A stretch of DNA of 64,000 nt from Oculina patagonica (lineage: Eukaryota). A program made the position numbers and the translations under genes. Numbering within the stretch: position 1 is the first letter of the stretch; each line of letters starts with the position of its first letter. This document shows, in pieces, positions 24,901 through 50,445 of the stretch. The notes under the pieces were generated by a model that saw only the letters and a list, made by a program, of their open reading frames with translations, did no database searches and was not told where the DNA came from. The stretch is from NCBI RefSeq assembly GCF_052425735.1, contig NC_135761.1, positions 63,364,001 through 63,428,000 on the forward strand, read 5' to 3'.

Positions 24901-27900
24901 TGGAATTCTCCGTTAAGCTCCTTTCAGCAAGGACAGCTAGTTAAGGAGAGACAGACTTACTCAGTTGCATGGATGGTTTAAGTGAAGACAATGAAATTCC
25001 TTTATCTAATTTTAAACTGACAAAATAACTGCTGAGAAAAGTATGTTTAACAAACTCAGTCCCACACAGAGCGTCAATATTTACTGCCAACGAAATATGT
25101 CCAGCGTCGAAAGAATGTAAACCATGCATTCTCTCTTTACTCTCAAAACACTTGTAGCGGAAGGCGGAAGGAAGACAGAGCTATTGAAGTGTATACATAC
25201 TAGATCAGTGAGGGAAAGGTGATCAGTGAGGGAAAGGTGAACTGAAAAAATATTAAACTAAGCTTAAAAGCTTTGAGGCTACACAAACAACATATCGATA
25301 ACATTTGATTCCGTTCCCCTGTATGTGCACTTAAATGGCTGTTTACGATCATTTTCTAATATATTTGTTCTGGTGAAAGTATTTCATAAAAAAAATTCAT
25401 AGTCGAGTGTCTCTTTTGCTAATCCGGGCGCCATGTGTAAAGGCGCAAATTCTGTGATGATGGTGTACAATCGGATTATTGATTTTGAGGGCTCGGCTTT
25501 AGACCTTCATGTACGACAGAGAAGTTGAGGTACTTCTCTTGAAAAAGACACTGTCAAGGACACTCGTGTCCCCTCAAAGAACTAGTCTCCCGGCTACACC
25601 AGTTCTGATTGCGTGGGGGAGGGGAGGGCAGGGGGTGGACGTGGATAAGTATAGAGTAAATAAGTACTTCTAATTTTTAGATCTAGAGGGATCTTTTATG
25701 CATGCATCATTTATGATCTTTTATGTTTTTCATATATCATGTCCAGCTGCTAAAAGAACTCCAGAAATATGAAAATGTTCTTTTGCTTATATCTTCGTTA
25801 AAGTTTTCTTCAGTCTGTGCTTCCTCTATTTCATTACCCCTGCGTCTACGAATACCCCCCCCCCCCCATATTAGAAGAGGATACCTTCCCAAACGGACCA
25901 ACAGAGTCCACATAATTACGCTTAATCACGTCTCTTCAACTAAGAAATAAAACTCGGTAAATGTATGTTTTATACTGTCTGAAAAACGTTTTTCCTCATA
26001 ACTTAATCGAGGTATAAAATTATCTCTCCTTTTTTGGAACTTTTCTCAAAGAAAGATCTGGATCATGGTTATGGTCTTTTAAAAAGTGGAAAAATGTAAA
26101 ACGTGCTGTATTGGCCCATTTGGGAATAATGATAGTTATATAATCCTAGCACGAGTGACGTCCATGACTTATCTGCATGGTAGGTCGAGAAATTGTAGCT
26201 TTCTTAAGCTTTTGGAAGTAAAAATATCCGACCGGAAGGATATTAGCAGTTGACCCTTAACATTTCTCACCGATGGAACGTGCAGAGCAATCAAAAGATG
26301 GAATTTTAACAGTTAACAGTCTAAAAATACTGTTAAATTGCCTGACTAAAAGCTGATGTCCATATGATGCCCAGACTCGCTGATGGTTCACGGTGATTTG
26401 AATATTTTACTTGAGTGCGAGTTATATCTTTCAAGGTCGGCTAGGGTGTTTAGATATACAGCATACAGGGGGAATTTAAATTGGGTAGACAGTATTTTAA
26501 GCTAAAATTGGGCCTTCAATGAGTATAAAGTAAACTGTTTTTTTTCCAGGTTTTTTCTATGTTTTTGGTATTTTGCATGATTTTGAGCGAAAATTTTGGG
26601 TATACCGGTAACATGTTTTTCAGGAACATTGGTATACTATTTACCTTCCGGCCGACCTTGATCTTTCTCAGTGAGTCGCTTTTCAACTCTCAGGAGTTGG
26701 GAGGGGGGTATGGTACACCTGAACGACGGGGTAGTGCCGATAAATTTTGTGGTTTGTTTGCATTCTGTTTTTTGTTTTGTTTTTTTGCTTGGAGGGGAGG
26801 GGAGGGGTGTACAATTTTGCCGAATTCGTATTCTTCAGAGAGAAAAAATTCCGTTACTAGTTATTCCGTGTGTCTATTCCTGCCAGAAAAAGTACCCCCT
26901 GTCCGGGGGGACTCCTCATTGATGTTTAACAAAAAAGCGTGCAAAGCAGAACGTTTTCCGAAGCTCGGCAATTAAATAAATTTAGATAAAGAGGTCGGAG
27001 AAAATTCTAGTCAGACATTTATATCCAATCTCAAAGGATTAGTAGACCTCAGATTTTTAATTAGATGTCTCGTTAAAAGGGTCAGGAAAGAGAACTAGAT
27101 AAATTTTGACAAGTCGGCACAGATTCTCCGTGTCTTTTTATTACATATACCTGAAGTTGTTAAGATTACTAGGCACGTGTACACGAAACATACGGGGTAT
27201 GCCAACTTCGTTATATCTACTTTGTACTTTGTACTTTAAACAAACATACATCCACTGACTAAAAGAGCGTTTTCGTTCTGTAAAGAGCTAAAAGAAACAA
27301 GTTAGTAAAAAAAGATTAAAGCGAGTCGGATACACTCCAGTGTCACCAATGTATCTCCAAGGCTAATCTTGACAAGGATTCGTTTGTTTTCCACTAATCG
27401 TAAATCACCCAGCTTAGTATTNNNNNNNNNNNNNNNNNNNNNNNNNNNNNNNNNNNNNNNNNNNNNNNNNNNNNNNNNNNNNNNNNNNNNNNNNNNNNNN
27501 NNNNNNNNNNNNNNNNNNNNNNNNNNNNNNNNNNNNNNNNNNNNNNNNNNNNNNNNNNNNNNNNNNNNNNNNNNNNNNNNNNNNNNNNNNNNNNNNNNNN
27601 NNNNNNNNNNNNNNNNNNNNNNNNNNNNNNNNNNNNNNNNNNNNNNNNNNNNNNNNNNNNNNNNNNNNNNNNNNNNNNNNNNNNNNNNNNNNNNNNNNNN
27701 NNNNNNNNNNNNNNNNNNNNNNNNNNNNNNNNNNNNNNNNNNNNNNNNNNNNNNNNNNNNNNNNNNNNNNNNNNNNNNNNNNNNNNNNNNNNNNNNNNNN
27801 NNNNNNNNNNNNNNNNNNNNNNNNNNNNNNNNNNNNNNNNNNNNNNNNNNNNNNNNNNNNNNNNNNNNNNNNNNNNNNNNNNNNNNNNNNNNNNNNNNNN

Positions 27901-27987
27901 NNNNNNNNNNNNNNNNNNNNNCAAAGAATGTCAAGAATGTTTGATGATAGCGCTGTTTCGGGTCAAGGGGTCATTGCAGACTTTGAT

Positions 27988-28699
27988 ATTTAATTTTCAT
28001 TTCATGCACACATGCCATATACACGTTGTAGAATTTACTGCAACAAGAGCAAGTAAAACATTTTCTAGCGAAATTAGAATTGCTCATTCGAATTTCACGT
28101 GGCTGGTAATTGATGCATTGCAACTCAAGACAACCAGAGACAACTTAATCGATAACACTAGATTTTAAAACACATAATAATATATTTTAAGCATACCTTT
28201 TTCATACGCTGTTTGCTTTGGAGAAGAGCGGCGAGAACTGTTTATGTTGATGGTGTACCATATTAATCGATGGGTTAATGTGTCGTCTTCATAGGTCCAC
28301 AAAACGCAAAAGTAGATTTCGCGCCATGGCTTGATATTTGGCGGGGAGTTAACTTGCCGCATTTCCCGCGCGTAAACATTATCCTTGGCTGCTGATTTTT
28401 TGTGGTTGTTTGGAGATTATCTTCCTTTAATGTTTGCAGTGAGAATACTTGCTTTCATCCTTGTTTCCATTATTCTTTCATTGAAGTAAATTATACTCCC
28501 TGCCCCGCCACAGACTGCACTGCATGTTAATTTTGACCAAATGATCTTGCACATCACCTCGTGATCTTTATTTGCACGGTTTCGCAATACACTGCTATTA
28601 ATTTGTAACAGAATGAAACGTGTACGGGCAAACGAGGAAATTAGATACAGAAAAAGCCAATGAAAACAAATTGGTGTATCGTCACCACCAATCAACGAT
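27988..28699 (+). repeat. Left long terminal inverted repeat (at least 712 bp; probably extends outward through 27922 into the gap)
   Basis: Reverse complement of 49227-49938 with about 5 mismatches seen by eye. The same spurious ORFs appear on opposite strands (28165-28362 vs 49564-49761). Degenerate similarity continues inward to about 28750. Confidence 0.95.
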
Positions 28700-28734
28700 A
28701 GACACATGTTACAAGCAGATTCACGGCATCTTTC

Positions 28735-29574
28735 ATGATTGCAGAACACGTAATCACGTTACTTTTGTTATCGTTTTTAAGCAAAGTTTATTTCTTTGCG
28801 ACTAGAAAAGAAAAACTGGGTATTATGTATTCAACTGAATCTTTTAAAGAAGAATCATCAGAGACTGGTAGCAATCACCTTTTCGATGAAATAGTGTTTG
28901 AGAGCGACAATGAAGAGTCACAACCGCATACCATGTTGCCACTGTTACATTCATCGACACTGCCTAAAGCGTATGACAATGTTGAGGTTGTGTTTGAAAG
29001 CGACGAAGAAGATTTCGAAGCAGATAACGTATTGCCTTTTTTGGAAACTGCAACACTTCTCAATGCTGTGTATAATGATGCAGCAGCAGCTACGGTTGTC
29101 AGTCCAAAACTTCCGCCTATCACCCTGGAAACTATCATTCCACCAGTGAGCCGCCAAGATATGAAGCGCATCTTCGTGGTAGAAACAATCAAGCAAGGCT
29201 CGCACAATTTCATCGAATTAAATGTTGGGTGCGGTTATTCCTCTTGCAAGGTTACTACCATAATTAACACTTCTGACAGTTATGGAATTTACTGGTGTCC
29301 TTTTCCAAAATGTAACATGAAGTCTAGGAAGCGATGGCTTTTAAGTGATCATTTGAGGAAAACCCATCACGGTCCATTTTACTGTGGGCAATGTGGCACT
29401 TTCTACTGTCACTTGTCTTCATTAGATCGCCATTTACGGCAAAGTGGGCATTTGCGTTTTACTCATTGTTTGAAAAATGAGGAACCTGGCTGTCATACTA
29501 CTGCAGCGATAAAACGGTTCTCTGCCGATATGTGTAAAGTTTTTTCAACTGCCCCAGGCTACATTATCCTATAG
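28735..29574 (+). CDS. C2H2 zinc-finger protein with duplicated acidic SIM-like segments (transposon cargo)
   Basis: 279-aa ORF (alternative start M31 at 28825). Fingers: CPFPKC-x12-HLRKTH and CGQC-x12-HLRQSGH. A 32-aa tandem repeat carries EIVFESDNEE / VEVVFESDEED. Confidence 0.75.
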   Translation: MIAEHVITLLLLSFLSKVYFFATRKEKLGIMYSTESFKEESSETGSNHLFDEIVFESDNEESQPHTMLPLLHSSTLPKAYDNVEVVFESDEEDFEADNVLPFLETATLLNAVYNDAAAATVVSPKLPPITLETIIPPVSRQDMKRIFVVETIKQGSHNFIELNVGCGYSSCKVTTIINTSDSYGIYWCPFPKCNMKSRKRWLLSDHLRKTHHGPFYCGQCGTFYCHLSSLDRHLRQSGHLRFTHCLKNEEPGCHTTAAIKRFSADMCKVFSTAPGYIIL

Positions 29575-30878
29575 GTTGAACTTAACGAAGTTTCTTTTTA
29601 TCAAAACTGTTGAACAGGCGAACTAACTATATCAATGATAAGATGTCAAAATTCTCATGCCGCAAATAACGACATTCCGTATATTTTAGTACCTTAGAAA
29701 TCATCTTGTATTTGACACACTGTTACATTGTTCCTAGTACTTAATTATACTAGACAACTTACACAAGGTACTGATAACATTTTTTTTGGTTAAAAAGTCT
29801 AAAAAGTTACTAAATTAAAAAAAAAAAAAACGTTTTTGACGTACAACATGAGATTAGCAAAGACGTACATGAAAAATAAACCACTGATTATGATCGTTAT
29901 GTCGAAAACGTTTTGGTTTTAAAATTTTAGTAGATTTCTAGCCTTTTTATAAACATCTTATTAAGCAAACATCTTAATAAGCAACGGACATTCTAAGATA
30001 CCTTGAACCTTATTTTCTTAAATATAAAAATATTGGACATAATTTTATTTGAACTAAATTACTTATTTTCTGATGGTTCTCTTTATGTAACCACACGTAA
30101 ACATCCTAGCAATTACCATATACATTTAATGATTTTCTAGAAAACAGTTGTCAACATGAAGAGGTCAGCAAATACGTCCGTGAAATGTAACAGATCAAAT
30201 TAGGAAACACTTTCAAAAATACAATTTAAATGCAATTGCTTTACACAAAAATAAAGACAACTTATTTGTTATTTTTTAATATGCATTGAGCCAATGAGAT
30301 CATATTATTAGCCGTTTAGTTTCGTCAACTGGAAAATGTAACTGTAATTAGACTTTCCCAAAAAAAAACGTACATGAAAAAACAGTAAGAATAATTGGGT
30401 TATAAATATGTGCATTTCCCGTTAACAAAATATTTGAAATAGATATCCTTTAGCTCCCATTATTTCTTGAAATAATAATTTAAATATACGTTAGTGAAAT
30501 TCATGAAGTATGGTCTGAGTGGGAGCAGGCCTGAAAAGGTTGTTTTTAGAAGTCTGCGTTTCTACTATCTTAAGGAAGCCAAATAGTTCATAAACTCAAG
30601 TTTAAATTTCTGCATGGCAATTGGATGAATCGAAGACCAAATGTTTCGGGCTTAGCTCTTCATCAGTCTTCTTTTGTCGAAACTTCAGACAATATGTGGG
30701 AACAACACTTAGTTTTCAGATCTACCCCAATTATACGAACTACCACAACACTCCTTAGTTTACAATTTTCAGAACATTGTTTGATTATTTGAATTGTATT
30801 GAAAAAGAGTGCCGTGTATAATCATCACTCCATGGATAGGAAGGGTTTTTGTTAAAATTGCCAACACTTCCTGGTCTA

Positions 30879-33800
30879 TCACTCCTTGTACTCCAAAATT
30901 TCATGTGCGATTTCGTACCGCAGGTGGTCCACATTTTCCTGGAAAAGGCAAAAAAAATATTTTGTATGCGATTTACTACTGTTATGCACTTAGTGAGAAG
31001 TACATACCTCTTATTAATCGCGTTTGAGGGTTTGTATTTTAAAATACGGACCGAGTTTTTTTCTGTCTATTTATAGCGCAAGCGCGAAGCACATGTTCTC
31101 AAAAAGCCAATTTGGGTACTATGCTTATTACTAATGCGTTTCGTTTTTCTGGCAATGTATTTCCGTAAAAAAAAAATTAAGAAACCTCAAAATGGGGAAA
31201 CTTGTGCTAATCCATTCAAATAACTCACTGACCTGAGTAAAGTTTGGCTGTACTCCCTCCGCTAAGCATTTTGCTGTCTGTGAAAAAAATGTTGTAGAGA
31301 ACCGAATCTGAGAACACTGATATAAAAGATAAAACTTAAAAGTTTCATTTTAGCTACGTGCAAAGGCGGTTACTAGTGAAATACACTATATATAGCTTTT
31401 GGGACAGTGAAGAAGTGATTTAATGAAGTTTTTGGGCCATCATTGCTAGCGTTTTGATTGTTTCTTCAATTCAGTCAGGTTTCTATTTTTTTAAAAAAGT
31501 GTTTCATCCATATTCTTGAATGCGTTTTGCCATTCCATGTATTGCATTAGCATATAGTCTACTGAAACGCAAAATCTTTTTTCCATATTTTTTTTAAAAA
31601 AGATAATAATTATTATCAAACCTCTATCACAAACACTCCACAACTGGTATCGTCGAGTTGTTCCGGTCCTTTCATAACGGTGTCTTCCCAACGATCTAAT
31701 TGGGAAAATCCCTGAGCAGTCAAAAATTTCCTACAGAAAAAAAAAATGACGATTTTTCTGGAAAACAATATTTGCACTTTACATTCATATTTAGAAAGCA
31801 GAAAAACACATAATCCAGAGATTAATTCCGTATATCGATACTGATGTGAGTTCTAGAAATATTAATGCATGAGACAAACCTAATATTTTTGAAAACTGAC
31901 TGCTTTGGACCGCTCTGCTTACTGTCGTAAAACACAATCGCTTGTTTGATTCTGTCGGCAACCTATAGGAATTAAAAAATTTCAGGCTCTTAGTTCACAG
32001 TTAACCCAAAAGTAACTTGAAAAATCTGGCTAGATAAAAGACGGATCATATAATAACTAATGACCATGGATTCTAAGTACGTTGTCGGTTAACAGTCATC
32101 TGTATGCACTACCATAGTTTACAGATTAGTTTGCACCTACCGCAAGCACCCAATGAACTCCTTGTATATTGATTGGGAAGAGCAAAATCTGACTTGTGTT
32201 TAGACGGTCCTGTTGATCGAATTTGTTGTTAATACTGTTTCGTTAGATTACAGGAATGAGAGGTAAGGTGGGAAATAGTTTTCCATTGTGGCAACTCTAT
32301 GAGTAATTAGCAAATTTTAACATAACAGATTTGCGGTGCTCTTCTTGGATGAACTGTTGCTGTATTTGTTCATTAGGCAAGCATTTTTAGTTTTCATACA
32401 GTTGAGCGAAAGCGAACTACAGTGTAGGCGTAAAAGTGACACGCATCTTTTGGGATTTTTTTCCCGCTTTCACTCAGTAAGAGACCAGATGTGAACTAAA
32501 CTAACGCTTGATGCACTATTCGTCAGAAGGACGCTGGGCCAAGAGGTAAAACGTGAAAAGATATTAAATGAGGCGTGGCTGAAAGTAACATTTACCTGGT
32601 CAAACCATTTATCTAATTTAAGGGTACGGACGTCGCTTTTCAAACTGTTCAGTTTTGCGTAGAAGAAACTGGTGAACGACATCAGCCTTTTTCCCTGAAA
32701 TGAAATTCGCATAAATAATACACGGTCAAGCTGGATTCCTTGCATGAAATAAGTTTTAACGCAAAAAAAGACTTAATTGTCACCTTTCTGTTGCCCCGTT
32801 CCTCAATGATTTTGAAGGAAGCGTCTATTATCTAAGGAAATAATAACGGATTGTCAGTAGTTATGTTTAAGATCCGCAAATTTACTGTAATATATTTACC
32901 TCCATTTTTACTTATAAAAGCCCACAGTGTGATAAGTACAATGAAACTGCCTTCTTGTCTGTGCCAGGTGGGGGGGGGGGGGGGGTGGGGGTGGGGTAAG
33001 GGTTAGTTTTGTGAAAGAGTGACATAGCGGTGCCAGGCAACTAACCTTAAATTGGCAATGTTCTTTGTTAATCGACATGTTTTGACCTTGACCGTACGCA
33101 ACTAACACATTAGAAACGTCTATGTTTGGTAATTCATAGATAGCGATTTTTAATGCAGAACAAAAGATTAAACCACGCTAAAGAGAAAGGAAAAAGCGGT
33201 AATAACGGCCACCAGTGTGAATTGTACTTATTAAAAGAATCCCGATGATTCCCCAAAAATCAAAATTTTTCTGTTATTGAATGTAAACACGGAAGTATTT
33301 TTATTCCACGTCACTGAGATATTTGTCAATTACGTGATAAACTGAGTGAGAAATCCGCCTGAAATTACAAAAAGATTTCGGCCACCTAAAACATGTAAAA
33401 TCCGCCCATGTTGGCATGCATTAATATCGAATAATTTCCGAGAAACACTTAGTTTTATGTTTTCAGCAGCAACTTGATTCACAAATGATTTTCACCCGGC
33501 CTGTGCCTGGCACCACTATGTCTTCAAAGAAAAAAAAAAAAAGTGCAGACTTTCTTCCACGCCCTTGTGAGTTCTGCTAGTTTACTCCCATGTTTATAAC
33601 GGGGCGTGGTTCCGTGTACATCTTTCCCTTTTGTTCTCTTTATCGTACCTGATCGTTTAGCCATCCATCAATAAATGGCTTGGACATTTCGCGATTTAAT
33701 AGCAATTTGTCCTCATCTGTCACGGATGGCTGCACTGTCTTCAAATCTTTCAGAGTTATCGTAATATCTCTGATTTTCCTGATTTTTGTAGACAGACACT

Positions 33801-36800
33801 TGTTGTGAATTTCCCATGCTGATTCAACCTAAAGTTTTGTAAGAACAATGATCAGGAAAAATTAATTCCCATTGTTAGTGCTGTATATGCAGAATTTTAA
33901 GGAAATCTATCTGCATGAACTCACCTTTCTTCGCTTTCTATATGTTTTAAGGACCTCCCCATAATGGGCCCTTATGAGAGGAAGATTGTTTACGCGGTAG
34001 CCGGTCTTTCCTTGAAGGCTTACTTCAATTTTTCGCCTGAAGATGTCGTTGGCGGTTACCGTTTCGTCCGACCTCTTTTTAAAATCGAAGACCTCGCCAG
34101 GTTTTTGTTCGAGGTAGGCGACACGAACATTGTCTCCTTCTACACCCATTACTTTGGCAATGTAGAATTTGACAATGTGGAATATTGCCACCCACTCGTT
34201 TACTTCAGGTATGGAATGTTTCTGCAACAATAAAGAAATCACCTTTGGTTTTCAAATTAATTTGGATGCAAATAGAGACGTTGCATTTCACATGATGGTA
34301 TTGCTGATTGTTTGTCATAAAGACAACCAGGTAAATGTTGAACAGCATATAAAGCATATAATCTTGGTATTGTTGGTATTACCTTCTTAGTTTCAGTCTT
34401 TTTGGCATCCTGTATCGGAGGATCCACTACATTTGATTCCCCTGTCGGAAAACCCTCTACATATGAATCCTCTGCCAGAGGATCCATTGCATTTGATTCC
34501 CCTGTCGGAAAATCGTCTACATATGAATTCTCTGTCAGAGAATCCTCTGAATGTGGTTCCTCTTTGGAAGAATCTAGGTGCAGTGGATCCTCTTCCACAA
34601 TTTCTATCTTCTCCTCTCCTATTTCAGGTTCGTCTTTTTCTTCATTTGTTGGAATTGCCTACAGAATGTCGAGAATATGTAAATTTTTAATCGAGAAGAG
34701 TTAAATTCATTTTTAAGATGGCAAAAAAAATTTAATTTTTAATTTTTAACGGCAAAATTATGTTGTCATAAGTACCATTCTACGTCGTTTTTTCTTGGGC
34801 CCTACTGTAACATTATCAGGGCCGGCTTCCTTAATTTCATTGTTATCCTGTAAGAGCAATTGCAAAAATTGTCAAATAAGTTTTAAGTTTACAAATAACT
34901 GCTTCAGGTCATTTATATATTGCAAAAGTATTGTTGCCAACAAACATTGCTCAAAGGATCTATAACGCTCTCCACCGGATAAATCGCTGTGTAGATGTAA
35001 ACAAAGCCAACTACTCTTTTAACTATGGAATGCTTTTGCGTGTTATACAATGGCATATTGTAGGTCACAAATTACAATTCCTCCTTAATTTTCTGAAATT
35101 TGGTGTACTTACTTCGGGCATGTAATCCACTAGTGATGAAACATCCTCTAACAGGAGGTTAAACTTTGGTTTTACCTGTATGGATAAGAAACGAAATGGT
35201 GTTTTTTGAGGCTTTCAAGGTTATATGATTGTCAACTGGTTATTTGCAATTTGCCAAACACAAAATCTTGTCTGCTGTCCAGACTTCCTAGCCAGTTTTC
35301 CTTTTCGAAAAATAAAGAAAAAATGCTTCCTTCGTGGAAACTGTTTCTTGGCTAGTGGCTACTTATAATTTTCGTGCGTGTTTACTGATAAAAAATTTCT
35401 TATTGGACTTGGACAGTATCACGACCTCTTGCTAACATACGTTTAAGCAACAGCTATGTCGTAATAATCAATAGAGGCTATGATATTAATTACTTCGATA
35501 TTAGTTGCATCCGCCACAATCTGTCCCTCCTTCCTTCTTTGGGTTGTTTTCACCTGTACAAAATAAACAAACCGCAACATCGATACTGACTCAGAGAGAC
35601 CCTTGAGAGTTACGACCAATTTTGAAACGCGTACAGGTTCGTCCTCGTTCTGACTCGAATCTGAACGGAAGACATGAATTAGACTTCACAAGTTTGTATC
35701 GCATAATTTCTGAATGTCTTTAGCTAGGGCTGTAGCCAGGCTTTGATATATACGAGGCAAACGTTGCGAGCGCCGAATGCGCGAGCCGCAGGTGGGGTTA
35801 TGGGAAATTCTGAAATCGTGAAGCACTGAAACGCTATGAGGTATTTCTATAGAAAGAAATCATGAGGAATTTCTACAGAAAAAACGATCTCATTTATCTG
35901 GGAATTATTTTTGGCCTCTTGCAAGTTACGGCCCTGATTTAACAAATGCTAAGTCTGATAGATTGCATCCTGGTAGAGTGTTATTTGTATTTAATTTTCT
36001 AACTGATTACTGGTGCCGGGAAGCAAAACGCAAATGAAATTATTCCCTAATTTTGCGAGTATACCATTTGGTTACCTTTTATAATCGTTGCATGTATGTA
36101 ATTGAATACGCTCTTACCGGACGTACCTTTACTTTTTCTTTGCCCGTGATGCTTCCCTGACCGTGTTTGCTGCTTGCTTCCTTAGCCTTGATGGAACATT
36201 ACAAGAAGCACAGTAAATATATCACATGTTTGCGCTGCAGTACATTTACTCAGCAGATACAACTGACAAGGAAGCAAACTGGAACACTCGCTATTCTTTG
36301 TCTGATCAATCTACATTCATGATTGTACCCTAAACATAACAAATGTTAAAACAATAAAGCAAACTAGAGGCTTTTGCATGGCTACTTTATGCGTTAGTCG
36401 TAAGTTATCGGAAAGGAAGATTTTTTTAAAAAAATGGCAGCACCCGTCTTGGGCAACTACAATCGCTTGGTTACCTCATCAAGCGTACAGCTTTCCTCCA
36501 ATAACGGTTCTTTTAGTGACGCAATGGTTGTTTGGAGTTTTTCAATTCTCTATGACATAAAAAGACAACATTTTCCGAATTATGATTCGTCATCGAAAAT
36601 TTACACTACCGTAATTATTCGATTTAGCGCCCTCCTTCCAATAAGCGCCCCCTTCCGAATAAGCGCCCCCCTTCGAATGTGTTTTTGTAAATAAGCGCCC
36701 CTATTCCAATAAGCGCCCCCATTCTAATTAGCTCCCCCATTCTTATAAGCACCCCTATTCTAATAAGCGCCCCTATTGCAGATAACTGCCCCTACTGAAG

Positions 36801-39471
36801 TCATTGACGTCAACTAGATAAGCTCCTGACCGTTCACCATACAGTTCATGTATATATATTTCTACTAAAATGAACAACTATTTTAAAAGTAACAAAACTT
36901 TTAACAATTTCTTACTGTTACAGTTCCTTTTATTGTTAGATACATTTGGTTGTTTCTCAAAAAATTGAATAAGCGCCCTGTCCCGAATAAGCGCCCTGTC
37001 TCGAATAAGCGCCATCCCTTGAGGTACCAAAAGGAAATAAGCGCCCCGGGCGCTAAATAACTTAGTTGTGATTAGAAAATTTCGTGTATTAAATAGATTA
37101 AATAGTTCGCAAGTTATTTAACTTCACTGAGCCTTTAAACAGTTGCTGTGGTAAAAAGAGAAACTGGGAGTCTTTCGATATGGTCAATAAGTCATTTGCA
37201 GAACATGATTACGCGCTTGGTTAACACCTAGCTTTGGGTCGCTTGGTAGCAAACCATCCACGTGTGACGTCAGATAACAGCAGTTTGAGTGAGAGCGAGC
37301 GTGGCCATTCAAACGTTTTACAAGTTTTCTAGACCAGCCACTCCGAAAAATCTCCAACAACGTATCAATCATAAACATCATCGGGGCCCAACTGAAGTGA
37401 GCGTTCGTTTGATTGTGATATCGATGCAACTTGGTTCGAAAGTGAGGGGAGTCAAAGTAAAAAAAAAAACGTAACTAAAGCATTGGAGTAAGGAAACGAA
37501 ATGCATAACAACCCTCTTTGGGAGTACAGTGGTTCGACGTAGAAAAAGGTCTGTCCGTTACCTTGTCATAAAATTCTCGTAGGTCTTTCTCTCTGGAACG
37601 AAGCTCCTCCACAAAGTCTTGAATGCCTCGATTCTCCTGCAATAACTTAGACAAAAGGCAACACGGAATTAGCAACTGTTCTTTAGTACAAAATTGTATT
37701 TTGGTTTAAATCACTTTCGCTGCTGGGGTCGTAAAACTCAACCTTCTCAATATTTCAATATCGATTACATAATTGAGAAAAAACAAAGGTGTTACAGATA
37801 TAACTGTTAGCAAAAAATTAAAATTTAAACACATCTAAAAAGTACTGAGTGAATTTATACTGCTTTTATGTTGTTGGAAGGTTCTTTACAATCAGGCGCG
37901 CATTGGTCTGATGCACAATTTAAGGGCCACCTACAATTCTTTGATTCCTTTAAATTTGAAACCAAATCAAGGTCCTTTACATTTATCAATAAAGATAAAG
38001 AAATTGCTTTACTGCCTCCGAGTTGCCCAATTTTACAGTTAGAGCTGCATGATAAAACTCACTTACAGTTTGAATTCTTGTTCGAAGTCCAGCACTTGTT
38101 CTTTTTTCGTCTTCCAACTGCCCTTTGAGCTCGTTGATTTCCGTTCGCTGATTTGAAATCGAGTAAGAAATTATTTCACTTAATTTTACCTGGCCAGAAC
38201 TGGTAAGGACAATTCCGGGACATCAAACATGAATATTATAAATAATAATAACTTAATTCTTCATAATTTTATTCAAATGATAATAATGCAATGTACAGTA
38301 GATTTTGTCACATACCAATACTGCTACATCCTCTTCTTGGAGGTCAGCTTCATCTTGAGATGATTCGAGCGCTTCCTCAAGTTGTTCATTCTGATCTTTC
38401 TTCGCCTTGCCCTTAAAAGCAAACAGAAGCGCATGTCAGCAATGACTGATAGCCCCGCTCCATAAAACCGTAACATATGTACACTCTTTTTTATATAAGA
38501 ACGTCTAATTTTCGGGCAGACTCTGAGCGTCTCTTTTTTTTCGATTTGAGGATGAAAATGTTTTTAAGACATTCTTAAGTTACCTTATTTTGGTCTACGA
38601 ACGGAGATTTTCTACACATTGTATCATGCAAGAAGCAAAAAAAACATTGTTAAAGTATTTCCTAGTTTTCAGCATTGAGTAGCTGTGCCGTTAAACCACA
38701 GTTTTGCATTTATTTATACTGCTCATTTTGATAAATTAAAACAAATGGGCAAATTAAAATTTGGGTAAGTCTCAACCTCAACATTCTTATAAAAAAATGG
38801 TTCTTGTAAAAAAAAAATAGTGTTTATGAAGCTATTTTAACAGAGGTTTAGCATGGTTTCTGTTGGACAACAACTGTGAAATGAATAAAATGAGAAAAAT
38901 AGCTCACCGTCTTTGCCGTGTTAAGTTCTGTCAACTTCTTTTCGCCTCCTTCAATCACTTTTTGTAGAAGGTCATAAGCTTCCTCTTCAGGACACGACTG
39001 TTTCAGGAACTTAAATGTGTAGCTCGAGATTTTATGGCTTCTGCAATACTTAGCAGGATTGTTTGCTATTTGTGTCACCAAGGCAAAACATCGCCGACTA
39101 AGCCTAGCTATTTGCTGAATCTTCTTTAAGTCCTAAGTTAAAGTCAAAATTACACTGTAATTTCATGCAGAAATAAACAAATTAATCAATCAAGACAAAA
39201 ACTAATATTAAAAGGCAGAGGCGGTTTTAAAACTCACTTTTGGACCCAAGTGTCTCTCTATAAAAGCTGCCAAACGCTTGTCCAGATCTCTGTTTACACC
39301 ACGTCGAGGTAAATCGTACCTTTCAGGTGTCAGTGATAGGAAGCGGTACATCGTTTCTCGTAGAATATTTACCGTCGGCCAAAAATCTGGTGGTTGATAT
39401 GGTGTGCTTTCGGCAACTACTCTTCCAGCGGTACTGGTTGATGGAGCGATTGGAATAAAAAACTTGTTCAT
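30879..39471 (-). CDS. Ulp1/SENP-family (peptidase C48, clan CE) cysteine protease with coiled-coil, NLS and Tudor-like region, ~743 aa
   Basis: Minus-strand GT-AG exons: 39471-39238, 39132-38908, 38411-38316, 38147-38067, 37636-37562, 36186-36127, 35553-35494, 35175-35113, 34847-34776, 34658-34383, 34221-33925, 33828-33649, 32831-32784, 32694-32596, 32209-32141, 31962-31880, 31730-31622, 31277-31233, 30938-30879. The catalytic domain reads ITLKDLKTV...GWLNDQIIDA...SFTSFFYAKL...KWF...LLFPINIQGVHWVLA...IVFYDS...PEQLDDTSCGVFVIE...FTQENVDHLRYEIAHEIL. The N-terminal exon set is less certain (an acceptor also lies at 39493-39494, and extra small exons are possible). Confidence 0.85.
36607..37060. 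mobile_element. MITE fragment with AATAAGCGCCC subterminal arrays, in a protease intron
   Basis: Starts TACCGTAATTATTCGATTTAGCGCCC and contains many AATAAGCGCCC copies. Inverted GGGCGCTAAAT at 37048-37058. Confidence 0.7.
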
Positions 39472-39879
39472 TTTTCGTTTTTCGCTGCTGTTCTGTCACA
39501 CAGAAATACTGATCACCCTTCGTAATATTTAATCGATTGAAATGGAGGTAAAGTTATCTTATCTATTACGAAATTAAATCAGGAAATGCGACGTTTATCC
39601 TTCAAAGGTTGGGTAACTTGAAAGACTCCACTCGAGCCATGGATAGAATTTGGTAGAATGAACCGAAAGAGACTTTTCTGACCATAAACCCGGGTGCGGG
39701 AAATTGTTTTACCTTTATTTTTCTTCTTACAACAATCTGAATTTTCGTGTTTCTTTTCAATAAAATTTGAAAATGTGACATGGTAGCATTGGGCAACAAC
39801 ATATTCATCCAAACGTATGACGTGAAAGGTTGACTGCGTTACACAACCTAGTATGTATTTCATGCAATTTGTCTCGCCC

Positions 39880-41760
39880 TTTACGATTCACATCAATAGT
39901 CCGTGAAGTATTTTCTATTATTAGACGATTTGATTGCTTTGATTGCTTTTATTTTTATATTGCAAATGTGAAATAGTAACCCTCGTCTATTTCCCAATGC
40001 CATGACGAGTTCTACTTATGCCGAACATTAGTGATACTGCACTTGGTATGAAAGACAAAGGAATTGTTTCTCTTTGCCTTTTGTCTTAAGTTTCAGTTTC
40101 TGTTCTTTTCGAATAAATGATTAACTGGAAAGCTTCCAAAGAAGCTTCGTGCAAATATATCGCAATTTCTTTATTTCAAGATATTTTTGTTACCTTAAGA
40201 ATAATCTGCCCACAGAAATGGAATTACGTTTACTAAGGGATGCTGGAAAGACACAGCTCATTGAACCAAATTAGCAAACATTCTGTAATGAAGCCCACTG
40301 AGCAAATAGTCCAGGCGTGCTGGTGACTGACTCGTGCTCGTTCATATTACCCAACAGTATGTCACGCACACACAAGACACCCACGTACGGGTTGTAAGTA
40401 TTGCGGTTTCTTAGCAATCGCTCCGCAATCGCTTTCTTTAAAGAAACTCCAATAAATTTAATGCTTGATAGCATACGCCATGACTGAGTCGTTACCAATG
40501 AGAAAAATACCGCAAGCACCTTTGCAGTCCAAAATAATTCTCTCGCGCGTGCACCGTATTCATTTTGTTGAGCCTGATCCAGATGTAATGAAGCTTCGAG
40601 CTGATATTTCTCAATTTAATCAGCGGGGAATGAAATGCTCGTTGTTAAACAAATCATCTTTTGGTTAAGGTTGGTATAGTCTTTTTTTATTCGTGGTCAG
40701 ATCGTTTAAAGATCAGCCAAAAGATCAACATTGTCGATTGTGAACGATGCATATTTATAAACTTACTAGTGTTGCGCAAATTCACATTAAACAGTCCGAA
40801 TTACGGAATCATGTTTTTTTTGATTTTGTCCCAATCACTTGCTTTTATATATTGTAGGGATCTATTATTCCGGATGATTAGTGTGTTCACTTTCTTTTAC
40901 TTGTACTGGTGAAATTTCACGTTGTACGAAAATTCACTCGATGTTTCAATCATGCTTTTTTGATATACTAGTAACGTACACCAATTGCAATTGTTAAAGA
41001 TTAACTGGAAAGCTTTAAACAACGCTTCTCGAAAATATATCAAAATTTGTATCACGGAAAACACTTTGATTACCCTTATAGTGTTCTTCCCCAAAAAACA
41101 GTTTTACGTTTGTTTAGTGCTTAAGGAAGTGGACAGTCAAAACCGATTGCAACAATAACGAAAGCGTGCTGTACTGAGCAGAAACTGTGCTCATTTCGAG
41201 ACAGGCTGACTTAGAAGAAATGCCACACACACGTATAGGTGTCACACAGGAACCGAACCGAGAATCCGTAAAAGTGTGCGAAGCTTTGACCAGATTACTG
41301 TAAAAGCAATTCGTAAAACACAGACAAGTTGTCTTTTGTTCTGTTGCAAAACATGTTATGACAACATACCGGTACAGTTGCTTTTGAAAATCATAAACAC
41401 AGTGCAAACGCACCCCTCTGCGTATAAAACCTGGCAGCGAGAACTGCCGCTAAAATTCTTACGCTAAAATTCTTACAGGATAGTCCTAAAGTCTACATTA
41501 GATTACCAGATAACCTCGCAATGAAAATCACACTGTTTTTTCGTACCGATCACTTATACCAGTATTCTGTCGAGCTATTTTATTTAACAATACGCGTGTT
41601 TATGCGCCTGTTGCAGTTACAGATTAACTGCAAAGCTTGCCGTAAGCTTCCTGAAGATATTTCGCAATTTCTAGCGCCGAAGGCAGTTTTGTTACCTTTG
41701 GAATAATCTTTCCAAGAAATGGAATTTTCGGCCAGGTTTGCAAACGCGATCATGCCTACG
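39880..41760. repeat. Three degenerate tandem units (~0.6-0.9 kb spacing) upstream of the protease ATG
   Basis: A shared core GATTAACTG(G/C)AAAGCTT...GCTTC...ATAT...AATTT...TTACC occurs at about 40119, 40999 and 41622. Confidence 0.7.
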
Positions 41761-41924
41761 GGAGTTAAACGAAAAAACTATGGGCACGTTAATATACGTG
41801 TCTCTGTCTATGGCCTTGTGTTTAATTGCGTATTGTATTTCTTTGCCTAACGCCCCGAGACGACTAATAGCGGTCCGTTCAAAGCGATATAGGTTATTTC
41901 ACACTTGACCTTTGCGTTACTCAA

Positions 41925-42230
41925 TAACTTCCGGAAAATTGTGATTGGACGAGTCAAGATCTTATTTACTGTTGTAGCCCCAAGTATTTAGACACGCGTC
42001 ACACGATTTTGGCGGGAACGTCACGAAATACAGATAAGCACAAACAACACTCTGGGAAAACAATAGTTATTATCTAGCTAGGGTACCATTGGCGGAATCA
42101 GGAACTAATGTACTTCACTTTCCATTAACACAAAGAGGATACGAAATGGCGGGAAAGTCAACTTTATACGACCCTTTGTAAGTGACAGCATGGTCACTTT
42201 GTAGCAGACATCGACGCTCTCGCTTCGAAC
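41925..42230. promoter_or_regulatory. Putative bidirectional promoter between the protease and transposase genes, with E2F-like sites
   Basis: TTTGGCGGGAA at 42008-42018, TGGCGGGAAA at 42147-42156, TTGGCGGAA at 42089-42097, plus ACTTCCGGAA (ETS-like) and GATTGG (CCAAT) near 41927-41948. It lies between divergently oriented genes. Confidence 0.45.
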
Positions 42231-45200
42231 ATGGCGATCAACAAACTCTGGAAGATAGATATACTCTTGGGCTGTTTTGTATTGTTGATTGTACTTATAG
42301 CACTTCGCTTCACTTCAAAACTGGCAATCGATAACCCGCCAGAAAACAATTCTTACAATAGAAGTGAGGAGACCCGACAAACCTTTTCCGGAGACGATCT
42401 TCGCACACGTAGTGAACACGGTAAACAAGATGGTCCAGGAGGCGACGATTTCCGCCCGAGATTTCCATTTTTTTACTGGGAAACCTGGGATTTTCCTGTG
42501 CTTACAACACTGGACATTCTGGGAGAGGAACTGCGAGCTATTGCTCGTCAAGCTGCCAAATCGCCATCGATTGCAAGTAAACAAGACCTGGAGGAAAACG
42601 ATATCGTTCTTTCGTCTGCAGCCGGGACAGTTGTAGGCGACCAGGTACATAGTTAAATTTCAATTTTTCTACAGTAGTAGTAGTAGTGGTAGTGGTAGTG
42701 GTAGTGGTAGTAGAAAGTAGTAAACTTTATTTAAGTGTCAATCGTTCTAGCGTTTTACACACTAATTGGTGACACTAATTACAAACTAAGATAAACATTA
42801 AAATTTTGAGAAAATTGAAACCCTTATTCTAAATAAAACTCTAGTTAAAAACATGTTTAAAAAACATACACTTATTCTAAATAAAACTCTAGTTACAAAC
42901 GTACTTAAAAAAACATACACTAATTACATAATTACGATCACTTTCTAAATTAACTATTGCATAAATAACAGTTCTTGCATCTCCCGTCTTCAATAAAGTG
43001 CGTTGAACACGATTTGACTTTGTTGTTCTGGTTACAGCCACAAGTGTTACGACTACGTGGAGGAGCAAGAGGTAGCAAGAACGTAAGTTATTTTTATCAC
43101 CTGCTCCCTTTGTAGTACATTTGTCTTCTTGTACCCAAAATTAAAAGTTTCCCTCGTAAAAACCTTTTACATTTCTACAAGTCTTCACTAACATTTCTGG
43201 GGACATCCGTGAAAAGCAATTCAATCATTGTATAACATTTCATAGCAACGATAGACTGCGATAAAGAAAGAGGAAAAGATGCTCCTGAGGAGCATGGTTA
43301 CTAACGATCTTTTTTCTTACCAGAGTGAAACGTCTGACGTAAAATGTGGTTGCGGTGGGGCATGCAATCATGGCATTGATGATGATTATGATGTAGAAAT
43401 TGAGGTCAGTCAGTGTATTGTAATCATTTAGTACAATTTAAACAGTTACGATGTTTAAGGTGTATATTCATGACCTGATGGGGTTGAAATGACACAACAA
43501 CAATAAATTATTGAACGTATGTGATACAAAGGGTCTCTATACAAAAGACAGCTCCGTGGTTTGGTCTATTGACCCTTTCTAAGAATGCTTATCATAACCT
43601 TACATTGACTTAAAAATTAAAGTTAGAAATAACGCGTGCGTAGCATTGCAGAAAAAAAAAAAAGGAAAAAGCCTGATGATTGTCTTTTGAATTATCTAAA
43701 TGTGCCTGTTTTTCGTTTTTTCAGGAAGATTGGAGAGATGATATAAAGGAACCTGCTTGCTTTGGATTGGATGGAAGTTTCGATGAAGATCGAAGGGTGA
43801 GTCTTTTCATAGTCACTTTAAGGGTGCTCTATTTCATTGATACTCAAATAATATTTGATCTATTTCTCCCTTCATATATTCTTAATTATACACTAAAATA
43901 TGCAGGCCGCTTCGCGGCATTGGTTCAATTGGAATTAATCTTACTGACTGACAACAATCAAGTTGGCAGACAACAGTTACTTTTGGGTCAAGCATGTCTT
44001 GGGCTTCCCGGGGGCACACTTTGAGGAGGCTTCGCCGGTGGTCAGAAGCTAATAGCCAGATTAGGACACCACAACGCACTATCAAAGTTTCACCGATTTA
44101 ACGAGATGCACAAGAATGCAGTCCATTTCGAATGTAGTGTCAGACTGAACGTTCTCCTTCTTAACATATTCAACATATCATGCTATGTCAAACTAAGGCT
44201 AAAAGATTTTTATGCTTCTTGTTTTTTCTCAGGATATAGTGAATGATTTTCCTTCTCCTGAATGCGATGTAGACAACACGATGGGCAAAGCAAAGCAAAC
44301 AGAAAAGCACCCTGTTGCGAAGAAGCAACCTGAAATAGCCAAGAGGCACAAGACAAAAGAAAATATGAAGAAAAGCAAAGTCAATTACGCCAAAGTGGAA
44401 AAAGAAGTGAAATTGGGTAACTGCTGCCACAAAAAATGTATACGAAGAAAACTTTCAATATCAGACGTTTATGAAACAAGACAAATGTTCTTCGACAAGT
44501 CACAGGAACAGCAAAGAGCCTATCTAATTAACTTCTTTCAGATTAGTCAGAGATCGAAAAACGGAAGAACGGTGTACGCCCACTATGTAAACGGCAAAGA
44601 AGTATGTCAGAAGGCCTGGATATTTAGCCATGGAATGGCATATGGGAGGTACGCTATATTTTTTTCTTTAGAATACAAACGTAACATAAGGAGGAGACAG
44701 GCTAGCAGGCTTACTTGCGCTAATGATAACTAACATTAATTTTTCTAACGTAGCTCTGTCCTCAGGGATAACTTTCCTTTTAACATCATTTTATATATAC
44801 TATGGTTGCTTGCTATGTTGTGTTTTAACAGATACCATAATTGGAAGCGCGAGGTTGAGAAAAAAGGCACAACACAAAGCTATCACTGTCGCGAAGGAAT
44901 GGTCTACAAATCCAAACGCACACTGGAAGCGGAACTTTGGTTTGACGAATTCGTGTCTACTTTTGCCAACATAATGCCTGACGTCAATAGGAGGGAACTA
45001 CCTTCGTGTATGACTATTTGCCAAATTCACAAAATGTATCGTGAGGCAATTAAACGTGCACCCTTAAGCTTAGCGCAGTTCAGACGAATGTGGAAACAGA
45101 ACTTCAAGGATGTAATTATACCTAAGGTAAGATGATGTAATGATAAAATAGAAATTGATTTTTTTAGTCGACGTTGTCGTCAGCGTCGCTGCATGTAAAG

Positions 45201-48200: not shown

Positions 48201-48663
48201 CCGTACATCCAATTCACAAATTTCTTTCGTCTTGTAAGGCTCACACCTAATAAAATCACGCTGGCAACGACACCCCCTCCCCCCCCCCCCCCACACACAC
48301 ACACACACCTCCCTGCACATCGGTAGAAAAACGTGAAAGATGAATTCTTCATTAGCAACCACACCTGACTGACCTAACTCAGTTGTTAAGTTATACCCAG
48401 GATAGATAAACAGATGAACCAAGTTATATGCTTTTGTGTAACTCCTTTCAGTTTTTGTAAAAAGTCTCATAAGGTAAATGAATTGTGATGCACAGGTGCA
48501 GATGACAAAGAAAGCGGTTGGCGGCAAGGACAAGGACCGAGGAACAAAGAGGAAACGTGCAGAAAAAACGTGTGAGAAGAAAACAAAAGGAAAAGGAGAA
48601 AACATTGAGAAAAAACGTGTGAAAAGAAAACAAAAGGAAAAGGCACCAAAAAATAAACAGTAA
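42231..48663 (+). CDS. Spliced DDD-type DNA transposase (Sola1-like/DUF7869-type), ~900 aa, with an N-terminal hydrophobic anchor and LRLRGG motif
   Basis: GT-AG exons 42231-42644, 43038-43082, 43324-43404, 43725-43796, 44233-44648, 44832-45126, 45571-45692, 45885-46014, 46189-46350, 46736-46852, 46933-46983, 47532-48161 and 48496-48663 total 2703 nt in one frame. Motifs: CCHKKC...VCQKAW, FSKCGVC, KYMSIIIDGMDQAK, HVTGTLSHGHG, LYLQLDNCYRDCKN, SYLVVGHTHEDIDQMFS, and a basic tail. AATAAA at 48669-48674. The core (exons 5-12) is secure; joining exons 1-4 to it is a prediction. Confidence 0.85.
42673..42722 (+). repeat. (GTA/GTG)n microsatellite in transposase intron 1
   Basis: gtagtagtagtagtggtagtggtagtggtagtggtagtag. 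Confidence 0.85.
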
Positions 48664-49226
48664 ATTGTAATAAAGTAAAAAAAAAATGCAATCATTTAAC
48701 AAGACGAAAATACCTATATTTGACTTATAAAATACCACGTTAAGAGCACTGACAGCACCAGAGGCTCTTTTCTTTTCGCGACGATTTGAAGGGGAAGGAG
48801 GGGGTGGGCTTCATGTAAAGGGGCAAAAATAATGCCGCACAAAGCAATACATCTGACACCTAGTGAGGTCGAGGAATATGAAAAAAATATTAGGATACAT
48901 CAATTATTATACTAACTACTATATTCTTTGACTGTTAAACAAGTCTTCGAATATTTGTAGGCATTAACATTCAAAATCGCGAAGTTAGACCAGCAACATT
49001 TACACCTTTCAAACGGTTTTCCTGTTACTTTTTCAAGTACCGCGAAAGATGTACAAACCATTTTCACGATATCCTAGTTGCGATACGACAATCTCAAATA
49101 TGGGGTAATTAAGAATACATTATCATAAAATAATCCCTCATGAAAAAAAGCAGGTGCGGCGAATATCCTCGCCTTCGCGTACTGCAATGTCATGAACAGT
49201 GAGACATTTCAATGTAATATGTATCG

Positions 49227-49938: not shown

Positions 49939-50445
49939 NNNNNNNNNNNNNNNNNNNNNNNNNNNNNNNNNNNNNNNNNNNNNNNNNNNNNNNNNNNNNN
50001 NNNNNNNNNNNNNNNNNNNNNNNNNNNNNNNNNNNNNNNNNNNNNNNNNNNNNNNNNNNNNNNNNNNNNNNNNNNNNNNNNNNNNNNNNNNNNNNNNNNN
50101 NNNNNNNNNNNNNNNNNNNNNNNNNNNNNNNNNNNNNNNNNNNNNNNNNNNNNNNNNNNNNNNNNNNNNNNNNNNNNNNNNNNNNNNNNNNNNNNNNNNN
50201 NNNNNNNNNNNNNNNNNNNNNNNNNNNNNNNNNNNNNNNNNNNNNNNNNNNNNNNNNNNNNNNNNNNNNNNNNNNNNNNNNNNNNNNNNNNNNNNNNNNN
50301 NNNNNNNNNNNNNNNNNNNNNNNNNNNNNNNNNNNNNNNNNNNNNNNNNNNNNNNNNNNNNNNNNNNNNNNNNNNNNNNNNNNNNNNNNNNNNNNNNNNN
50401 NNNNNNNNNNNNNNNNNNNNNNNNNNNNNNNNNNNNNNCTTAGTA

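What the first reader, a model, noticed from the sequence alone, without database searches (positions are those of the whole stretch)
30879..33828. Intact C48/Ulp1 catalytic domain hidden in eight small exons and nearly invisible in the ORF track
Seen: WLNDQ|IID, FTSFFYAKL, FPINIQGVHW (His ~32153-32155), FYDS (Asp ~31924-31926) and PEQLDDTSCGVF (Gln; Cys ~31640-31642) join in frame with canonical splice sites. Known: this is the His-Asp-Cys order of clan CE SUMO/NEDD8/ubiquitin proteases, and SUMOylation takes part in transposon silencing. Inference: an active enzyme serving as a maturation protease and/or anti-silencing deSUMOylase. The divergent oxyanion loop (QLDDTSC rather than QxNxxDC) may indicate altered specificity.
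Basis: partly seen in the sequence, partly recalled or inferred. Interest (0 to 1): 0.8.

Follow-up and report, generated by a model that had tools for sequence, protein, structure and literature searches.

The report
Transposon-carried SUMO-type protease gene
A large jumping gene in a coral-like animal carries a spliced, expressed gene for a SUMO/ubiquitin-type protease, a common kind of transposon cargo, but here the transposase beside it seems to start with a membrane-type leader ending in ubiquitin's own cutting motif, so the protease may switch the transposase on.

Summary
Observation confirmed. RNA contigs from two studies show 6 of 7 junctions. The domain is not a gene of its own: it ends a 20-exon, 771-aa protein (unknown helical domain, coiled coil, Tudor/chromo-like barrel, C48). 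That gene lies head-to-head with an intact DUF7869 transposase in a single-copy, about 23-kb inverted-repeat transposon. A Stylophora relative has the same layout, passes Pfam C48 (E 2e-19), folds like SENP/Ulp1 and keeps the Q-x-D-x-x-S-C loop, so the loop is a family trait; published CE-clan specificity maps elsewhere. Ulp1 cargo is known from several transposon groups and is common in this genome. A recently mobile sister family lacks the C48, so it is not needed for transposition. The unusual part: the transposase model opens with a hydrophobic leader and a 45-nt exon encoding VLRLRGG|A, the host ubiquitin-S27a junction; the C48-less sister family lacks both. Best reading: a nuclear SUMO-type isopeptidase serving the element (0.5). 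Maturation of the transposase is the bold rival (0.25). No activity was tested.

The parts
27422..50438 (.). DNA transposon, about 23,017 bp, single intact copy in the genome; both outer 500-bp ends read N in this window
   Evidence: Inverted arms 27988-28713 / 49213-49938, 99% complementary, running on into the N stretches; arm and internal DNA found whole only here
27413..27421 (+). 9-bp direct repeat, left copy (probable target-site duplication; right copy 50439-50447)
   Evidence: Of lengths 3-13 only 9 matches on both sides. Related families have 4-bp duplications, so the length is unexplained
30879..33828 (-). C48/Ulp1-type catalytic domain, 8 exons, 230 aa (aa 542-771 of the cargo protein); His 32155-32153, Asp 31926-31924, Gln 31660-31658, Cys 31642-31640
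33649..33828 (-). Phase-0 exon carrying the VR-1-equivalent region, a family insertion and the WLND motif; skipped in the main X2 contig
   Evidence: Contig arithmetic, 453 versus 633 nt; homologous in Stylophora
33925..34221 (-). Tudor/chromo-barrel-like beta domain, 99 aa, directly before the C48
   Evidence: Exon in RNA contigs; 38% identical to Stylophora; model region matches chromo, PWWP, BAH and Tudor chains at Z up to 6.9, a weak level
34383..38411 (-). Middle exons of the cargo gene: coiled coil, PKKKRRR NLS-like stretch (exon 34847-34776), acidic 30-bp repeats (34415-34545)
   Evidence: joints 36185/36474, 36549/37562, 37645/38067, 38145/38316
38908..39471 (-). First two exons of the cargo gene: conserved helical domain of no known family (aa 1-153)
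   Evidence: 58% identical to Stylophora, more than the C48 at 39%; no family from the Atlas search; the intron between them was unspliced in one X2 contig
29836..30878 (-). 3' untranslated region of the cargo transcript
   Evidence: X2 contig covers 29836-30937 in one piece
28702..29574 (+). Intronless C2H2 zinc-finger ORF next to the left arm
   Evidence: zf-C2H2 E 0.0082, below cut-off; no RNA depth in 28720-29386; remnant beside the arm of a related element
42231..42644 (+). Modelled first exon of the transposase precursor: 138-aa leader with an N-terminal hydrophobic stretch
   Evidence: ATG and GT donor, 19-residue hydropathy 2.67 at aa 9; partly covered by an X2 contig; single copy; its joint to the next exon was not seen directly
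43038..43082 (+). 45-nt phase-0 mini-exon encoding VLRLRGG|A, the P7-P1' of the host ubiquitin-S27a junction
   Evidence: AG/GT sites; the 926-nt X1 contig equals 282+416+72+81+45 nt plus 30 nt of an upstream exon; host junction read in L100
43324..48662 (+). DUF7869 DDE-type transposase, 11 further exons, open throughout (898 aa with the leader); acidic motifs DGMDQ, LDNC, GHTHEDIDQ
   Evidence: (PF25273 E 1.9e-22); 54-63% identical to Porites and Montipora proteins, 41% to Nematostella; X1 contigs over 44232-45113 and 47529-48160

Best explanation
The eight exons are the catalytic end of a transposon cargo protein. The element has two head-to-head genes: a DUF7869 transposase on the + strand and a 771-aa accessory protein on the - strand (helical domain, coiled coil, NLS-like stretch, Tudor/chromo-like barrel, C48). 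Shown: gene structure, splicing, transcription, an intact His-Asp-Cys/Gln/Trp set, a SENP-like fold in the closest relative, location inside the element. Inferred: the protein enters the nucleus, is held on chromatin or on the element by its barrel and helical domains, and cuts after di-Gly motifs, most likely removing SUMO from silencing or repair proteins near the element, which eases its expression or transposition. The protease is an optional module: the ancestral cargo gene (helical domain to barrel) also exists without it. Skipping the WLND exon would give a form that keeps the targeting domains but lacks part of the substrate site, probably inactive.
For: Splicing and expression in two studies. 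Open frame across 20 exons. Stylophora relative with the same layout, 36% identical over 337 aa, Pfam C48 E 2.2e-19. Its best solved relatives by sequence are SENP1, SENP2, SENP5, Ulp1 and SENP3 (14 of 14 hits). By fold: SENP5, SENP3, SENP1 and Ulp1 at Z 19.1-19.8, NEDP1 18.4, bacterial and viral CE proteases 15.0 or less. WLND, F-x-x-FF and K/R-W motifs match a host SENP1/2. The sister family has the same cargo gene ending at the barrel. Ulp1 cargo is reported for Ginger1, Mutator and CACTA elements (PMC2836005; PMC2528002; passages).
Against: No assay. The fold and Pfam tests were run on the Stylophora relative, not on this protein. NEDP1 lies within about 1 Z unit of the SUMO proteases, so fold does not fix the substrate. 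The domain is only 26-29% identical to a host SENP1/2, has an insertion before WLND, and has acidic FDQ where SENPs have TKK. The barrel match is weak (Z under 7) and the helical domain has no assigned function. One of two RNA sets mostly skips the WLND exon. The anti-silencing role rests on general knowledge of SUMO-dependent silencing; I saw only a search listing on that (PMC7676866).
Confidence: 0.5

Rival explanations
1. Maturation protease with ubiquitin-tail specificity. The transposase is made as a membrane-tethered precursor (hydrophobic leader, then VLRLRGG|A, then transposase) and the element's own C48 cuts after the di-Gly to release it, so transposition needs both genes to be expressed.
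For: In-frame mini-exon with canonical sites. The X1 contig length fits its inclusion to the base, leaving 30 nt for an upstream exon. Exact LRLRGG expected 1e-4 times in the element's 1,947 coding residues. Identical to the host Ub-S27a junction. The C48-less sister family has no such motif and its transposase appears to start without a leader. The Nematostella transposase has a hydrophobic N-terminus and LLRLRGSGG. Viral CE proteases cut polyproteins after Gly motifs (recalled).
Against: The leader-to-mini-exon and mini-exon joints were not among the joints shown. Co-occurrence rests on 2 families. The Nematostella motif is not LRLRGG, does not align with it, and I could not check that element for a C48. 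The Porites lutea protein is annotated without a leader. The leader is not ubiquitin-like (860 of 1000 shuffles score as well). A host deubiquitinase could cut the site instead. If the hydrophobic stretch is a signal peptide, the site would face the ER lumen. Genome-wide the degenerate pattern is near background (13 matches against 9 for the control), and another VLRLRGGA sits in an unrelated single-copy ORF. The fold is closer to SUMO proteases than to CE deubiquitinases.
Confidence: 0.25
2. The domain is a deubiquitinase or deNEDDylase acting on host proteins (for example protecting the transposase from degradation or tuning repair at the cut site), unrelated to the LRLRGG exon.
For: NEDP1 at Z 18.4. 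The VR-1-adjacent insertion and acidic substitutions could suit a basic ubiquitin tail (inference). Bacterial CE proteases often act as deubiquitinases (PMC7465683, PMC4961225, passages).
Against: All 14 sequence hits among solved structures are SUMO proteases. VR-3 before the His is short, unlike NEDP1's insertion described in PMC4961225.
Confidence: 0.13
3. Passenger or domesticated gene: a captured SENP domain that is inactive, or that now serves the host rather than the element.
For: The element is single copy; most relatives in the genome are broken; the sister family moves without C48; exon skipping in X2; Stylophora's copy is annotated as 'Sentrin-specific protease 1' and I could not see its surroundings.
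Against: Arms 99% complementary and an open transposase point to a young element. All catalytic residues are kept at about 39% identity to Stylophora. Of 3 coding differences in RNA contigs that I checked, 2 are silent (too few to weigh).
Confidence: 0.12

Closest known systems
Ulp1-carrying DNA transposons: Mutator/MULE (plants, hydra, lancelet), Ginger1, plant CACTA (PMC2836005, PMC2528002; passages read); Zisupton (recalled)
   Same: A C48 domain carried by a cut-and-paste transposon and proposed to act on SUMO in transposition or silencing; in grape MULEs the ULP1 region can face away from the transposase.
   Different: Here the transposase is DUF7869-type, the C48 ends a separate 20-exon gene behind a Tudor/chromo-like barrel, and the transposase model carries a ubiquitin-tail motif. 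In Ginger1 the domain is fused to the transposase.
Stylophora pistillata PFX11608.1 / XP_022777969.1, annotated 'Sentrin-specific protease 1' / uncharacterized
   Same: Same domain order, 58% identity in the helical domain, 39% in the C48, same loop type; sister rows in a 7-row tree, support 99/99.
   Different: Shorter acidic middle; genomic context not seen. The SENP1 label probably names transposon cargo (inference).
Host SUMO proteases SENP1/2/3/5 and yeast Ulp1 (PDB 2xph, 1tgz, 9gnn, 1euv)
   Same: Fold, His-Asp-Cys order, Q-x5-C spacing, WLND and HW tryptophans.
   Different: 26-29% identity; insertion before WLND; D-x-x-S in place of N-G-x-D; unrelated N-terminal domains.
Polinton/adenovirus/ASFV clan-CE maturation proteases (C5, C57, C63; family numbers recalled)
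   Same: Clan CE fold; a mobile element encoding both a protease and a possible Gly-Gly site.
   Different: Lower fold scores (ASFV pS273R Z 12.7, adenain 10.7). No polymerase, ATPase or capsid ORF was seen in the element (ORF list).
Sola DNA transposons, Sola1-like (features recalled; the founding paper is not held)
   Same: DDD-type motifs of similar layout; 4-bp target duplications in the related families of this genome.
   Different: This copy is flanked by a 9-bp repeat; no direct comparison with curated Sola transposases was possible.

Membership tests
Peptidase C48 (clan CE) | His-Asp-Cys triad in that order, oxyanion Gln six residues before Cys | tested here: met
   His128, Asp145, Gln184, Cys190 of the 230-aa domain
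Peptidase C48 (clan CE) | Profile match over the domain | tested here: met
   65.2 bits against a profile of 4 Pfam-verified C48 domains; PF02902 E 2.2e-19 for the 39%-identical relative. Pfam itself was run on single exons only
Peptidase C48 (clan CE) | CE fold | tested here: met
   Model of the Stylophora relative, Z 19.8 to SENP5, rmsd 2.2 over 162 residues; this protein itself was not folded
Peptidase C48 (clan CE) | Hydrolysis after a di-Gly motif | not testable with these tools
   Needs an assay
SENP/Ulp1 SUMO-specific proteases | SENP-like substrate site (WLND, VR-1 hairpin, VR-2 aromatic patch, basic R-W-x-K-K) | tested here: inconclusive
   WLND, F-x-x-FF and K-W kept; TKK replaced by FDQ; insertion before WLND; NEDP1 within about 1 Z unit
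Host SENP1/2 orthologue | High identity to SENP1/2 and a host-type locus | tested here: not met
   26-29% to a SENP1/2; lies inside an inverted-repeat element. The host orthologue itself was not located in the genome
Polinton/Maverick | Protein-primed polymerase, retroviral-type integrase, ATPase, capsid genes (PMC5718144, passages) | tested here: not met
   Transposase is DUF7869; the other stop-free stretches of 90 aa or more inside the element belong to the named genes or are short and unassigned (spliced genes could hide)
Mutator/MULE with Ulp1 | MULE transposase; 9-bp target duplication and long inverted repeats (recalled) | tested here: not met
   9-bp repeat and long arms fit, but no MULE match in the 3 transposase stretches scanned; DUF7869 instead
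Sola superfamily | Sola-type DDD transposase | tested here: inconclusive
   Only a weak hit to a Sola1-like remnant, E 0.034, named from memory; no reference set at hand
Sola superfamily | 4-bp target duplication (recalled) | tested here: inconclusive
   Met in relatives: 3 copies of the sister family with both ends intact and one related non-autonomous element. This copy shows a 9-bp repeat and its ends read N

The most novel reading that the evidence does not exclude
A eukaryotic cut-and-paste transposon that makes its transposase as a membrane-tethered precursor ending its leader in a mimic of the ubiquitin tail (VLRLRGG|A), and encodes on the opposite strand a SENP-derived protease retuned to cut that site: a two-gene proteolytic switch for transposition, itself adjustable by skipping the exon that holds the substrate site.
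Probability: 0.22. Interest if true: 0.85.

Novelty: new variant of a known kind. Interest (0 to 1): 0.5.

Why it matters
Ulp1-type domains recur in many transposon groups, and the passages I read offer only proposals for what they do (PMC2836005). This element gives an intact, transcribed example with a natural control, a recently mobile sister family whose cargo gene lacks the protease, and a named candidate substrate in its own transposase. Three probes and one co-expression test would separate anti-silencing deSUMOylation from precursor maturation. It also suggests that some coral genes labelled 'SENP1' are transposon cargo.

Tried and rejected
Word-indexed search with the barrel exon found nothing; the full HMMER scan found 12 proteins, of which 2 repeat-type hits (P0006, P0015) were set aside as unrelated. 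Alignments of small exon pieces with distant C48s were misaligned and not used as profiles. The second fold (better N-terminal alignment) was poor, mean pLDDT 44.9, and was not searched. Atlas searches for the barrel and the helical domain gave only unnamed clusters. The helical domain's one listed match of note (DAXX bundle, Z 6.2) is not significant; the domain was not folded alone. No solved relative of the transposase and none in viral contigs. The metagenome scan gave 14 distant C48 loci, none from this family. No run was on record as RNA; X1 and X2 count as RNA only because their contigs lack the introns. Raw-read runs X6 and X3 laid 43 and 6 reads, mostly on repeats, and say nothing on expression or small RNAs. 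The flanks did not give an empty site: the right flank is a common 289-bp repeat, the left is unique. Broken relatives elsewhere on the chromosome showed no leader or motif but are too decayed to count. An I-E-G-G site in the cargo protein is not kept in Stylophora and was rejected as a cleavage site. dN/dS was not possible: no intact second copy and no DNA for the Stylophora gene. The tree has 7 rows, long branches and only one host SENP, so it does not show the donor. No complex was predicted (enzyme with substrate, cross-species). The bacterial promoter scan is not informative here. Not in print, by these searches only: 'DUF7869' 0 papers; 'LRLRGG' with 'transposase' 1 unrelated paper; Sola/Ulp1 searches listed no matching title. 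Repbase Reports and most subscription papers are not held; no supplements were read, and such tables could list this family.
Full report
1. Observation. Eight minus-strand exons from 33828 to 30879 have AG acceptors and GT donors and give 230 codons and a stop, with Trp56, His128, Asp145, Gln184 and Cys190. A profile from four other C48 domains of this genome, each above the Pfam cut-off, scores the joined domain 65.2 bits, against 4.6 for the best of 200 shuffles. Of five C48 exons scanned alone, two touch Pfam C48 weakly, and the genome-wide six-frame search misses the locus.

2. Splicing. Contigs of runs X1 and X2 (two studies; RNA status a guess by the tool) skip six of the seven introns at the predicted places. 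The tool showed 15 joints and hid 25, and the WLNDQ|IID joint was not shown. In X1, two contigs carry about 128 and 42 extra bases that fit the two ends of exon 33828-33649, and the bin depth expected from that (3.12) equals the depth seen. In X2 the 2,324-nt contig leaves about 453 nt between the barrel exon and the last exon, which is the sum without that exon; with it 633 are needed. The remaining depth in that bin fits a minor including form, but a deletion allele is not excluded.

3. The whole gene. Upstream exons extend the frame to an ATG at 39471: 20 exons, 771 aa, no internal stop, 18 of 19 introns in phase 0. Four upstream joints appear and contig lengths fit the rest of the middle exons. 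The first intron was unspliced in one X2 contig, but homology supports that splice. A full HMMER scan with the barrel exon found a Stylophora pistillata protein of the same layout: 58% identical in aa 1-153, 38% in the barrel, 39% in the C48. It passes Pfam C48 at E 2.2e-19. Its 14 sequence hits among solved structures are all SUMO proteases, SENP1 first. In its model the C48 scores Z 19.1-19.8 with SENP5, SENP3, SENP1 and Ulp1, 18.4 with NEDP1 and 15.0 or less with bacterial and viral CE proteases; the barrel matches chromo, PWWP, BAH and Tudor chains at Z up to 6.9, which is weak.

4. The element. Inverted arms of 99% complementarity (27988-28713, 49213-49938) run into N stretches, outside which stands a 9-bp direct repeat, giving about 23 kb. 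Inside are a zinc-finger ORF, the cargo gene and, head-to-head with it, an open DUF7869 transposase. Closest named transposases are from Porites, Montipora and Nematostella, so the host is probably a stony coral (inference). The element is single copy; a 96%-identical piece of the cargo 5' end and a short piece of the WLND exon lie elsewhere on the chromosome. Its superfamily is not settled: the motifs recall Sola1 (from memory), related families have 4-bp duplications and AACA ends, this copy has a 9-bp repeat.

5. A natural control. A sister family has five transposase copies at 37% identity to this one; two compared copies are 99.5% alike, so it moved recently. It has the same opposite-strand cargo gene, with the helical domain and the barrel, but a stop follows the barrel, and a C48 profile finds nothing above 8.5 bits in the two copies scanned, while it finds a C48 remnant at 14 bits in another related element (the profile contains this window's domain, and tiny distant exons could be missed). 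The protease is therefore an optional module. C48 domains are common on this genome's transposons: among the top Pfam hits, ORFs fuse C48 to a Mutator-type or a Sola2-type transposase (type names from memory). Ulp1 cargo is reported for Ginger1 and Mutator (PMC2836005, passages) and for grape CACTA and MULE families (PMC2528002, passages). Unchecked notes of this scan list 52 findings with both words in at least 19 genomes.

6. The loop. Q-x5-C spacing is as in SENPs. The Q-x-D-x-x-S-C form is shared by the Stylophora protein and the remnant and by 3 of 14 distant metagenome loci, so it is conserved rather than decayed, and not rare. Pruneda and colleagues place Ub/Ubl choice in variable regions VR-1 to VR-3 (PMC4961225, passages). 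By alignment with a host SENP1/2 this domain keeps WLND, F-x-x-FF and K-W, loses the basic TKK, and inserts about 19 residues (10 in Stylophora) before WLND. That region and the Trp lie in the exon skipped in X2.

7. The ubiquitin-tail exon. A scan for di-Gly sites found LRLRGG at 43047 on the + strand. It lies in a 45-nt AG/GT exon between a 138-codon exon with a hydrophobic start and the transposase exons; the joined model is 898 aa without a stop, motif at aa 142-147. The 926-nt X1 contig over the transposase 5' end is accounted for by 282+416+72+81+45 nt plus 30 nt of an upstream exon; this is arithmetic, not a displayed joint. VLRLRGG|A equals the host ubiquitin-S27a junction. Chance in the element's coding residues is about 1e-4. 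The C48-less family has no such motif. Against: the Nematostella motif LLRLRGSGG does not align with it, Porites is annotated without a leader, the leader is not ubiquitin-like, the pattern is near background genome-wide (13 against 9), topology is unknown, and host enzymes could cut it.

8. Verdict. Real, intact, transcribed transposon cargo (about 0.93). Most likely a nuclear SUMO-type isopeptidase serving the element (0.5); maturation of the transposase precursor 0.25; deubiquitinase or deNEDDylase 0.13; passenger or domesticated 0.12. As a C48 on a transposon it is ordinary. The separate multi-domain gene on a DUF7869 element, the protease-less sister family and the ubiquitin-tail exon make it a new variant worth a simple assay. 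I found no description of it in the searches named under Tried and rejected. Interest 0.5.

Noticed in passing
window 39471-30879 and 42231-48662: 18 of 19 cargo introns and most transposase introns are in phase 0, so single exons can be skipped without a frameshift; the two Stylophora models also differ by in-frame blocks.
   Followed up: partly
window 38908-39471 (-): The N-terminal 153 aa are the most conserved part of the cargo family, occur also in the protease-less family and have no known family.
   Followed up: partly
L013-L015 (G000:C4:35484976-35499181): Non-autonomous relative with 1,839-bp arms (99.8%), a 4-bp duplication, zinc-finger and C48 remnants, and a nested LINE-type retrotransposon.
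   Followed up: partly
L027:3580-5076 (-): A 499-aa ORF joins a domain resembling herpesvirus tegument-type deubiquitinases (recalled) to a C48 domain.
   Followed up: no
L028:4528-9000 (+), L029: Mutator-type ORF with a USP-like stretch, a C48 domain, a transposase and a SWIM-like finger in one frame.
   Followed up: no
L030, L031, L032: Sola2-like transposases fused to C48 followed by a Tudor-like barrel, the reverse order of the cargo protein here.
   Followed up: partly
L023:1385-2144 (+): Single-copy, frameshifted zinc-finger ORF with another VLRLRGGA, about 10 kb or more upstream of a sister-family copy.
   Followed up: partly
G000:C4, about 33-47 Mb: Most broken DUF7869 elements and cargo fragments found cluster in this part of one chromosome, including tandem transposase pieces near 46.0 Mb.
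   Followed up: no
window 36607-37058 and 50446-50734: Two common short repeats: one nested in a cargo intron with very high RNA depth, one with a hairpin directly beside the element's right end.
   Followed up: partly
window 21030-21941 (+), 52087-53217 (-), 1358-1825 (+): Long low-complexity ORFs outside the element, probably host exons; no Pfam family above cut-off.
   Followed up: no
window 56288-56792 and 54402-54912: Tandem 21-bp and 13-bp arrays with inverted ends, and an 18-bp palindromic array; likely small non-autonomous repeats.
   Followed up: no
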